Assembly: GCF_055900595.2 (NCBI RefSeq)
Contig: NZ_CM148325.1
Length of the DNA: 64,000 bases
Reading direction: 5' to 3' (one strand)
The notes under the pieces are model-generated. The model did not search any database and had not been told where the DNA came from. It saw nothing but the letters and a program-made list of their open reading frames with translations. This document shows, in pieces, positions 46,811-46,925 of the stretch (positions are counted from its first letter, which is position 1; every line of letters starts with the position of its first letter). A program made the translations under genes and the position numbers.

Positions 46811-46925
46811 CCATCACATCACATCACATCACATCACATCACATCACATCACATCACATCACATCACATCACATCACATCGCATCACATCGCATCACATC
46901 ACATCGCATCACATCGCATTACATC
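46811..46925. repeat. pentanucleotide microsatellite (ACATC)n
   Basis: about 23 tandem 5-bp units counted; 13 consecutive perfect ACATC (46816-46880), then alternating ACATC/GCATC variants. Confidence 0.95.

What the first reader, a model, noticed from the sequence alone, without database searches (positions are those of the whole stretch)
46811..46925. ACATC pentanucleotide microsatellite upstream of the S-M module
About 23 tandem 5-bp units (13 consecutive perfect ACATC, then ACATC/GCATC variants) lie 245 bp after the hsdR stop and about 300 bp before the small ORF. Tracts of this kind are classic contingency loci: unit gain or loss by slipped-strand mispairing would change promoter spacing or phasing for the downstream module, or read-through from hsdR. 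Long perfect pentanucleotide arrays are unusual in E. coli chromosomes.
Basis: seen in the sequence. Interest (0 to 1): 0.7.

Follow-up and report, generated by a model that had tools for sequence, protein, structure and literature searches.

The report
Hypervariable five-base repeat upstream of methylase
A real and, for E. coli, unusually long five-base repeat changes length between otherwise identical strains, but it lies about 220 bases upstream of the likely promoter of the neighbouring DNA-methylase genes, so it is best read as a fast-mutating stretch of imported spacer DNA rather than a proven genetic switch.

Summary
In detail: 13 perfect ACATC units (46816-46880) plus 9 interrupted units (46881-46925). 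The array is hypervariable. In 21 Escherichia assemblies I found 20 distinct alleles (2-18 perfect units; variable segment 50-175 bp, always a multiple of 5). Six isolates with zero SNPs in 4.85 kb of flanks carry six different lengths. The tract is the largest block of a compound pentanucleotide array: (ACAAC)n, (ACATC)n, (AACTT)n and (AAGTT)n all vary.

It lies in a 2.7-kb, 30%-GC island (46582-49280) that replaces symE/GmrSD between hsdR and yjiS. The island encodes a 56-aa ORF, a half-size S subunit and a 419-aa Type-I-like methylase, with no R gene.

The contingency-switch reading is only partly supported. Diverged copies of the cassette (45-53% identity) share a promoter/operator-like block (47119-47177), and none has a repeat. 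The tract ends 219 bp upstream of that -35. Haplotypes with only 2-4 units keep an intact cassette. No second operator lies beyond the tract.

Most likely it is a slippage hotspot whose 5-nt loops escape MutS, with little or no regulatory effect. A distal rheostat role is not excluded (about 0.2-0.25). An A9 run inside the methylase ORF (A10 in one isolate) is the more classical on/off candidate.

The parts
46572..46601 (+). Terminator-like hairpin after the hsdR stop. The left junction of the imported island (46581/46582) lies in its loop.
   Evidence: 13-pair stem followed by a T-rich tail; identity with strain KE55, which lacks the island, ends at 46581.
46582..49280 (+). Low-GC island (30% GC against 49% for the window). 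It replaces symE/GmrSD between hsdR and yjiS and carries the spacer, the repeat array and the three-gene S-M cassette.
   Evidence: junctions and GC content; only 1 of 5,426 complete E. coli genomes (MB52) carries it.
46802..46811 (.). (ACAAC)2, the first block of the compound pentanucleotide array. It has 1-5 units in other isolates.
46816..46880 (.). (ACATC)13, the perfect core of the microsatellite. It has 2-18 perfect units in other isolates.
46881..46925 (.). Nine interrupted units (GCATC/ACATC/GCATT). This part also varies, by 5- and 10-bp steps.
46926..46940 (.). (AACTT)2 followed by AAGTT. The two motifs are reverse complements and form a palindrome. AACTT has 1-6 units and AAGTT 0-2 units in other isolates.
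   Evidence: I7
46984..47012 (+). Weaker sigma70-like candidate specific to the E. coli spacer (TTTAGC, 17-bp spacer, TAAAGT), 59 bp downstream of the tract.
   Evidence: rough weight matrix, score 8.4; the L048 version scores 11.2. Inference only.
47051..47067 (.). Two A8 runs (A8 T A8) between the tract and the promoter block. Their lengths vary among isolates: 8/8, 8/7, 8/9, 8/6, 7/8, 7/7, 6/7, 10/6.
47119..47177 (+). Conserved promoter/operator-like block of the cassette: -35 GTGACA at 47144-47149, -10 TACCTT at 47167-47172, and the inverted repeat CAGTA-N8-TACTG at 47159-47176 overlapping the -10.
   Evidence: conserved across cassettes whose M proteins are only 45-53% identical; top sigma70 score here and in every relative; the only exact copy of the inverted repeat in the window.
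47221..47391 (+). Conserved 56-aa ORF with a good ribosome-binding site (GAAGGAG). Its stop overlaps the S start (ATGA). Function unknown.
   Evidence: same length and position in all relatives; no family hit.
47388..47969 (+). Half-size Type I specificity (S) subunit, 193 aa, with a single target-recognition domain.
   Evidence: Methylase_S and Type I specificity models
47972..49231 (+). N6-adenine DNA methylase, 419 aa. It is Type-I HsdM-like but has no recorded HsdM_N Pfam domain, unlike the neighbouring 539-aa HsdM.
48675..48683 (+). A9 homopolymer inside the methylase ORF (codons Q-K-K-I). One isolate (L043) has A10, which frameshifts the gene.
   Evidence: the resulting 149-aa fragment P0141 is seen on 16 contigs.

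Best explanation
The tract is the expanded core of a compound pentanucleotide microsatellite in imported, AT-rich, non-coding spacer DNA. During replication the repeated 5-bp units misalign. The resulting 5-nt loops are too large for E. coli MutS, so they are not repaired, and unit number drifts up and down quickly. The array grew from a 2-3-unit proto-repeat that is still present in the most diverged haplotypes. Neighbouring 5-bp motifs in the same register slip as well. It is not part of the cassette's conserved promoter/operator, which lies 194-250 bp downstream. Length changes therefore most probably have no effect, or only a small one, on expression of the 56-aa-ORF/S/M cassette.

Shown: the tract exists; it is hypervariable in 5-bp steps; it lies outside the conserved regulatory block; and it is absent or short in relatives whose cassettes are intact.

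Inferred: the slippage and mismatch-repair-escape mechanism (established knowledge applied here), the promoter assignment, and near-neutrality.
For: 1. Hypervariability. 21 assemblies carry 20 alleles, and all lengths are multiples of 5. Six isolates with 0 SNPs over 4.85 kb of flanks have six different lengths, and L047 and L049 are 3 SNPs apart yet have 5 and 12 perfect units. MB52 differs from the window by one SNP in about 840 bp of the intergenic region and a clean 70-bp deletion in the tract.
2. Compound, motif-independent slippage. ACAAC has 1-5 units, ACATC 2-18, AACTT 1-6 and AAGTT 0-2, and the nearby A-runs also vary. This points to a local mutational process rather than selection on one motif.
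3. Proto-state. L048 and L050 (the most diverged flanks, 76 SNPs) have 2-3 units, and L038, L039 and L052 have 3, all with an intact M ORF.
4. MutS recognises insertion/deletion loops only up to 4 nt (PMC8235422, citing Parker and Marinus 1992).
5. Position. The conserved block is 47119-47177, and the best sigma70-like site has its -35 at 47144, in the window and in all relatives. The tract ends at 46925.
6. Relatives of the cassette in Citrobacter sedlakii and three other enterobacterial contexts have 170-250 bp upstream spacers and no SSR.
7. There is no second operator copy distal to the tract and no Rfam match.
8. The cassette tolerates inactivation: M is frameshifted in L043 and L049.
Against: - Long perfect SSRs are otherwise almost absent from E. 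coli. Persistence of 5-18 perfect units across the main haplotype group, and independently 12 units in L049, could reflect selection for mutability.
- The position, upstream of a DNA methylase, matches the classic association of SSRs with restriction-modification genes in Haemophilus and Neisseria.
- Distal SSRs can regulate promoters, as in nadA.
- A weaker promoter candidate lies only 59 bp downstream of the tract.
- No expression data were available, so neutrality is inferred, not shown.
- The sigma70 weight matrix used frequencies recalled from memory.
Confidence: 0.6

Rival explanations
1. Distal rheostat or contingency locus. Gain or loss of 5-bp units (about half a helical turn each) changes the distance and face-of-helix relation between the AT-rich DNA upstream of the tract and the cassette promoter(s). 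This would tune or switch transcription of the orphan S-M methylase, for example by altering nucleoid-protein bridging or silencing, or an upstream contact for the nearer candidate promoter at 46984-47012. The outcome would be a population that is heterogeneous in methylation.
For: Very high mutability. The tract is upstream of, and in the same orientation as, a methylase module. Distal repeats have precedents, as in nadA (PMC2791445), and hmw repeats lie about 100 bp upstream of their genes (PMC2651432). A promoter candidate lies 59 bp downstream of the tract. The spacer is 26% GC, the kind of DNA usually bound by silencing proteins (general knowledge). Long arrays are exceptional in E. coli.
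Against: The tract lies 219 bp from the conserved -35. There is no repeat in any diverged cassette. Haplotypes with 2-4 units have an intact cassette. There is no second operator beyond the tract. Several unrelated neighbouring motifs slip as well. The nearer promoter candidate is weak, is predicted only by a rough matrix, and lies in non-conserved spacer.
Confidence: 0.22
2. Transcribed repeat. The tract is part of a long 5' leader, made either by read-through from hsdR or from a promoter in 46582-46810. Its unstructured, G-poor (ACAUC)n RNA would affect mRNA stability or translation of the cassette, as reported for repeats in 5'UTRs of other bacteria.
For: The tract is on the same strand as hsdR and the cassette. 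The post-hsdR hairpin has a weak T-tail. 5'UTR repeats that affect expression are documented (PMC2791445 discussion).
Against: No good + strand promoter-like site lies upstream of the tract (best scores 5.9-6.9). A terminator-like hairpin lies at 46572-46601. The cassette has its own conserved promoter-like block close to the ATG, and relatives have no long leader.
Confidence: 0.07
3. Coding repeat or assembly artefact. Either the ORF 46767-46937 (56 aa, GTG start) is a real gene whose frame is switched by the repeat, or the length differences are assembly errors.
For: An ORF spans the tract, because the + strand of the repeat has no stop codon in any frame.
Against: The ORF has no ribosome-binding site. 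It collapses to a few codons in the 2-4-unit haplotypes, and its frame and end change with every 5-bp step. It was not tested against protein families. Length differences recur in independent complete and draft assemblies, always in exact 5-bp multiples with structured interruption patterns, and two independent assemblies share the same 27-unit allele.
Confidence: 0.02

Closest known systems
Haemophilus influenzae hsdM (GACGA)n pentanucleotide phase variation (Zaleski 2005, as described in PMC2651432 and PMC7383803)
   Same: A pentanucleotide SSR associated with a Type I-family methylase gene. Unit number varies among isolates, and slipped-strand mispairing is the mechanism.
   Different: In Haemophilus the repeat is inside the hsdM ORF and switches the reading frame on and off with 1-4 units. 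Here the repeat is non-coding, about 300 bp upstream of the first cassette ORF and over 1 kb upstream of M, and has up to 27 units. It cannot act by frameshifting.
Neisseria meningitidis nadA distal TAAA tract (PMC2791445)
   Same: An SSR upstream of the core promoter rather than within it. Unit changes alter the spacing of distal elements. This is the best mechanistic model for any regulatory role here.
   Different: The nadA tract lies at -55 to -85, between two NadR operators and an IHF site. Here the tract ends 219 bp upstream of the -35, and the operator-like inverted repeat has no second copy beyond the tract.
H. influenzae hmw1A/hmw2A heptanucleotide repeats (Dawid 1999, as described in PMC2651432)
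   Same: Multi-unit repeats upstream of the gene that modulate expression level rather than switching the frame.
   Different: The hmw repeats are about 100 bp upstream and lie within the mapped promoter region between alternative start sites. No start sites are mapped here, and the distance is two to three times greater.
E. coli VNTR loci used for MLVA typing (for example the O157:H7 VNTRs, PMC3777172)
   Same: Hypervariable tandem repeats in E. coli that change faster than flanking point mutations and can discriminate near-identical isolates.
   Different: I did not read that paper for unit sizes; from memory, those loci mostly have units of 6 bp or more. This is a pentanucleotide array in a rare accessory island, and I found no description of it.
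M.AhdI-type M2S2 methylase (PMC2878638), as an analogue of the neighbouring module and not of the tract
   Same: Separate M and S genes make a Type I-like methylase without HsdR. A half-size S implies a dimer and a symmetric target.
   Different: AhdI has a partner Type II endonuclease and a controller protein. Here no R gene is present, a conserved 56-aa ORF precedes S, and no sequence comparison with AhdI was made.

Membership tests
Simple-sequence-repeat contingency locus (phase-variable gene control) | A tandem repeat of short units long enough to slip at high frequency | tested here: met
   13 perfect units plus 9 interrupted units
Simple-sequence-repeat contingency locus (phase-variable gene control) | Unit number varies between closely related isolates or within populations | tested here: met
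   20 alleles in 21 assemblies. Six lengths occur among six isolates with 0 flank SNPs. Within-culture variation was not testable.
Simple-sequence-repeat contingency locus (phase-variable gene control) | The repeat lies inside an ORF (frame switch), or within or next to the core promoter (-35/-10 spacing), of the controlled gene | tested here: not met
   The repeat is non-coding. It ends 219 bp upstream of the conserved -35 and 296 bp upstream of the first ATG. The promoter assignment is itself a prediction.
Simple-sequence-repeat contingency locus (phase-variable gene control) | Repeat number changes expression of the adjacent gene | not testable with these tools
   Needs reporter fusions, RNA mapping or methylome data.
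Distal-repeat promoter control of the nadA type | Regulator operators on both sides of the tract, so that tract length sets the operator spacing | tested here: not met
   The inverted repeat CAGTA-N8-TACTG is present once, at 47159-47176. No copy with 2 or fewer mismatches lies in 46582-46815. A different, unknown distal site cannot be excluded.
Phasevarion (phase-variable methylase regulon), ORF-SSR criterion of Atack et al. 2019 | An SSR within the hsdM or hsdS ORF: mononucleotide runs of 9 or more, or tetra- or pentanucleotide repeats of 3 or more units | tested here: not met
   For the pentanucleotide tract the criterion is not met, because the tract is outside any ORF. The separate A9 run in the M ORF (48675-48683) would meet it.
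Neutral VNTR / microsatellite | Length polymorphism without conservation of the repeat in orthologous or related loci, arising from a short proto-repeat | tested here: met
   Absent from diverged cassettes. Diverged haplotypes have 2-3 units. Neighbouring motifs also slip.
Type I restriction-modification system (the downstream module) | HsdM, HsdS and HsdR genes together | tested here: not met
   The cassette encodes only S and M. Relatives in Citrobacter have no hsdR nearby. The adjacent hsdMSR is a separate, complete system.

The most novel reading that the evidence does not exclude
Escherichia carries an SSR-driven, phasevarion-like epigenetic switch. An orphan M2S2 Type-I-like methylase would be set by two hypermutable tracts. 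The upstream compound pentanucleotide array would act as a distal rheostat on transcription, and the in-ORF A9 run would act as an on/off frameshift switch. This would generate methylation heterogeneity in a species thought to lack SSR contingency loci.
Probability: 0.1. Interest if true: 0.75.

Novelty: new member of a known kind. Interest (0 to 1): 0.42.

Why it matters
E. coli is the textbook example of a bacterium without long microsatellites and without SSR-based contingency genes. Its known phase variation uses DNA inversion or Dam methylation.

This locus shows that a long pentanucleotide array can arise and expand in Escherichia, reaching 18 perfect units, and that it mutates much faster than the flanking sequence. 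That fits 5-nt loops escaping mismatch repair.

Practically, it is a very discriminating typing marker for the lineages that carry the island, and it breaks short-read assemblies (one contig, L006, ends inside it).

Biologically, it sits next to an uncharacterised, conserved three-gene orphan methylase cassette of the immigration control region. If length did tune that methylase, it would be the first SSR-controlled methylase in E. coli. The present evidence makes that the minority view.

Tried and rejected
1. Core-promoter spacing switch. Rejected: the tract is 219 bp from the conserved -35.
2. nadA-type flanking operators. I searched for a second copy of the operator-like inverted repeat and found none beyond the tract.
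3. Known RNA. Rfam at a permissive threshold found nothing in 46400-49700 beyond chance-level hits.
4. Coding repeat. The ORF 46767-46937 is an artefact of a stop-free repeat; it is not conserved in frame or length across alleles.
5. Origin of the spacer. Distant BLAST against complete E. coli genomes and plasmids found only MB52, so the donor is unknown.
6. More relatives through the operator motif. The genome-contig scan found only Citrobacter sedlakii, and all 12 metagenome-contig hits were chance matches in unrelated coding DNA.
7. The 332-aa M forms looked like truncations but are only alternative start calls at Met88.
8. The simple consensus promoter scan found nothing between the tract and the small ORF, so I used a home-made weight matrix with frequencies from memory. 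Treat its scores as rough.
9. The contig start of the Salmonella 'partial' homologue showed no repeat.

Full report
**1. What is at the coordinates**

Tandem Repeats Finder reports a single array at 46801-46926 with period 5, 25.4 copies and score 196. It is the only short-period array of more than 6 copies in the 64-kb window.

Read base by base, the array consists of:
- (ACAAC)2 at 46802-46811;
- 13 perfect ACATC units at 46816-46880;
- nine interrupted units (GCATC/ACATC/GCATT) at 46881-46925;
- (AACTT)2 followed by AAGTT at 46926-40.

All blocks are in one 5-bp register. AACTT and AAGTT are reverse complements, so the last block is a palindrome (I7).

For scale, K-12 has no pentanucleotide SSRs at all and at most four units of any tetranucleotide (PMC7015867, citing Gur-Arie 2000).

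**2. Context**

The window carries yjiA, a BrnTA pair, an Mrr-like endonuclease, and a complete Type I system in the order hsdM-hsdS-hsdR (40234-46565). A terminator-like hairpin follows hsdR at 46572-46601.

From 46582 to 49280 the sequence is a 30%-GC island in a 49%-GC window. Strains such as KE55 have symE and GmrSD genes in this slot, and identity with KE55 ends at 46581, inside the hairpin loop.

The island holds:
- a 537-bp spacer (46582-47118; 26% GC without the tract) that contains the repeat;
- a 56-aa ORF (47221-47391) with a strong ribosome-binding site, whose stop overlaps the next start (ATGA);
- a half-size Type I specificity subunit (47388-47969);
- a 419-aa HsdM-like N6-adenine methylase (47972-49231).

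There is no R gene in the island.

Only one of 5,426 complete RefSeq E. coli genomes (MB52) carries the island, and it is not on plasmids. The exact S protein is nevertheless indexed in 413 blocks of the public assembly collection. The M cluster includes E. fergusonii and cryptic Escherichia clades.

**3. The tract is hypervariable**

MB52 differs from the window by one SNP in about 840 bp of the intergenic region and by a clean 70-bp (14-unit) deletion in the tract.

Exact-protein look-ups gave 22 assemblies. Twenty-one span the tract. The twenty-second, L006, has a contig that ends inside it.

| Measure | Result |
|---|---|
| Distinct alleles of the segment between fixed anchors | 20 in 21 assemblies |
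| Length of that segment | 50-175 bp, always a multiple of 5 |
| (ACATC) perfect units | 2-18 |
| ACATC-like units in total | 2-27 |
| (ACAAC) units | 1-5 |
| (AACTT) units | 1-6 |
| (AAGTT) units | 0-2 |

The two A-runs at 47051-47067 also vary.

Over 4.85 kb of aligned flanks, the window, L002, L003, L005, L040 and L043 have zero SNPs. Their variable segments are 150, 140, 115, 105, 100 and 135 bp. L047 and L049 differ by 3 SNPs and have 5 and 12 perfect units. The tract therefore mutates far faster than about 5 kb of flanking sequence accumulates substitutions.

The second, on transcripts, could not be tested.

**4. How the tract arose**

The most diverged haplotypes (L048 and L050, 76 flank SNPs from the window) have only 2-3 units (...CCATCACATCACATCAACTT...). 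L038, L039 and L052 have 3.

The long array is therefore an expansion within some lineages from a short proto-repeat. Interruptions (G and T variants) have accumulated at its 3' end. Different neighbouring blocks have expanded in other lineages: AACTT x6 in L039 and ACAAC x5 in L049.

This is the pattern expected of a slippage-prone region, not of a conserved functional motif.

The unit size suggests why this happens in a mismatch-repair-proficient species: MutS recognises insertion/deletion loops only up to four nucleotides (PMC8235422, citing Parker and Marinus 1992), so 5-nt loops are not corrected. This step is established knowledge applied to the locus and was not tested here.

**5. Where the cassette's control region is**

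The closest relatives of the M protein are only 45-53% identical. Their loci include Citrobacter sedlakii and three other enterobacterial contexts, all in the yjiA-yjiS immigration control slot. They keep the same three-gene layout, including a 56-aa ORF.

Their upstream spacers are only 170-250 bp long and contain no SSR.

The only upstream sequence shared with the window is a block equivalent to 47119-47177: CAAAAAAA ... GTGACAAC ... CAGTACGCTAnCTTACTG.

I ran a rough sigma70 weight matrix with frequencies from memory, so its scores are approximate. Its best + strand hit in the whole 660-bp intergenic region falls in this block: -35 GTGACA at 47144, a 17-bp spacer, and -10 TACCTT at 47167. 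The same element is the top hit in each relative. An inverted repeat, CAGTA-N8-TACTG (47159-47176), overlaps the -10 like a repressor operator.

The tract ends 194 bp before this block and 219 bp before the -35. It cannot change -35/-10 spacing.

A weaker candidate promoter that exists only in the E. coli spacer (46984-47012) lies 59 bp downstream of the tract.

**6. Testing the regulatory models**

- **nadA model.** The best-understood distal-repeat mechanism is nadA. Its tract lies at -55 to -85, between two repressor operators, one of which overlaps the -10 (PMC2791445). I searched for a second copy of the operator-like inverted repeat. The only exact match in the 64 kb is the one at 47159-47176, and none with 2 or fewer mismatches lies between hsdR and the tract. 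That architecture is not met.
- **Frame switching.** This is how the H. influenzae hsdM pentanucleotide works (PMC2651432, PMC7383803). The ORF 46767-46937 exists only because the repeat has no stop codon on the + strand.
- **Known RNA.** No Rfam family matches.
- **Dispensability.** Cassettes with short tracts are intact. Conversely, the methylase is frameshifted in L043 and L049, which have long tracts, so the module is dispensable in some isolates.

**7. Verdict**

This is a real, exceptionally variable compound pentanucleotide microsatellite, unusual for Escherichia.

The interpretation as a contingency locus is only partly supported. The hypermutability is there, but the position, the absence from related cassettes, the short-tract haplotypes and the lack of flanking operators argue against a built-in switch.

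I rate the readings as follows:

| Reading | Confidence |
|---|---|
| Slippage hotspot with little or no regulatory effect | about 0.6 |
| Distal rheostat (spacing, helical phase or silencing effects on the cassette promoters) | about 0.22 |
| Transcribed leader repeat | about 0.07 |
| Coding repeat or assembly artefact | about 0.02 |

None of the regulatory readings can be excluded without expression data.

**8. Related observation**

In the window's haplotype the methylase ORF contains an A9 run (48675-48683). L043 has A10 and a frameshifted gene, and the resulting 149-aa fragment is recorded on 16 contigs.

By the published ORF-SSR criterion (mononucleotide runs of 9 or more; PMC7383803), this run, and not the pentanucleotide tract, would flag the gene as potentially phase-variable. 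That survey did not consider upstream repeats and does not mention Escherichia.

I found no prior description of this locus.

Noticed in passing
window 48675-48683 (inside the M ORF, 47972-49231): An A9 homopolymer in the methylase coding sequence (codons Q-K-K-I). Isolate L043 has A10, which frameshifts the gene, and the resulting 149-aa fragment (P0141) is on 16 contigs. Other haplotypes have A8T, A7TT or AACAAAATT. It meets the published ORF-SSR criterion for a phase-variable Type I methylase.
   Followed up: partly
window 47221-47391: A 56-aa ORF with a basic and hydrophobic N-terminus. It has the same length and position in every diverged cassette, and it overlaps or abuts the S start (ATGA in the window). 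It has no NCBIfam or PADLOC hit; function unknown.
   Followed up: partly
window 47119-47177: A promoter-like block that is strongly conserved across cassettes whose proteins are only about 50% identical. The inverted repeat CAGTA-N8-TACTG (47159-47176) overlaps the predicted -10 like a repressor operator. The regulator is unknown.
   Followed up: partly
window 46572-46601: The left junction of the 2.7-kb low-GC island (46581/46582) falls in the loop of the hsdR terminator hairpin. The island supplies a different, imperfect right arm. This suggests that cassette exchange recombines at terminator hairpins.
   Followed up: partly
window 47019-47037 and 47174-47192: A 19-nt inverted repeat, 84% complementary, with arms 136 nt apart. 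It brackets the A-runs and the conserved promoter block. Its significance is unknown.
   Followed up: no
window 41810-43207 (hsdS) compared with L034-L049: Isolates with the same S-M cassette carry different alleles of the neighbouring Type I hsdS (436-460 aa), and in L038 and L049 hsdS is split into fragments. The immigration control region is therefore recombining around the cassette.
   Followed up: no
L014 and the P0006 cluster (Salmonella enterica): The Salmonella homologue of the cassette methylase forms a cluster of 2,190 members. The members listed are fragments or 'partial' proteins of many lengths, which suggests a widespread pseudogene next to the Salmonella hsdMSR.
   Followed up: no
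window 59378-59486: A perfect 9-bp repeat (AACATCTGC x3.9) followed by degenerate 9/18/27-bp repeats, reported by Tandem Repeats Finder. Not examined.
   Followed up: no
window 13917-14239 and 5804-6047: A 120-bp tandem array (2.7 copies) of tRNA-like units, and a 100-bp repeat (2.1 copies) that I guess to be REP-like sequence. Both were seen only in the Tandem Repeats Finder output, and neither guess was checked.
   Followed up: no
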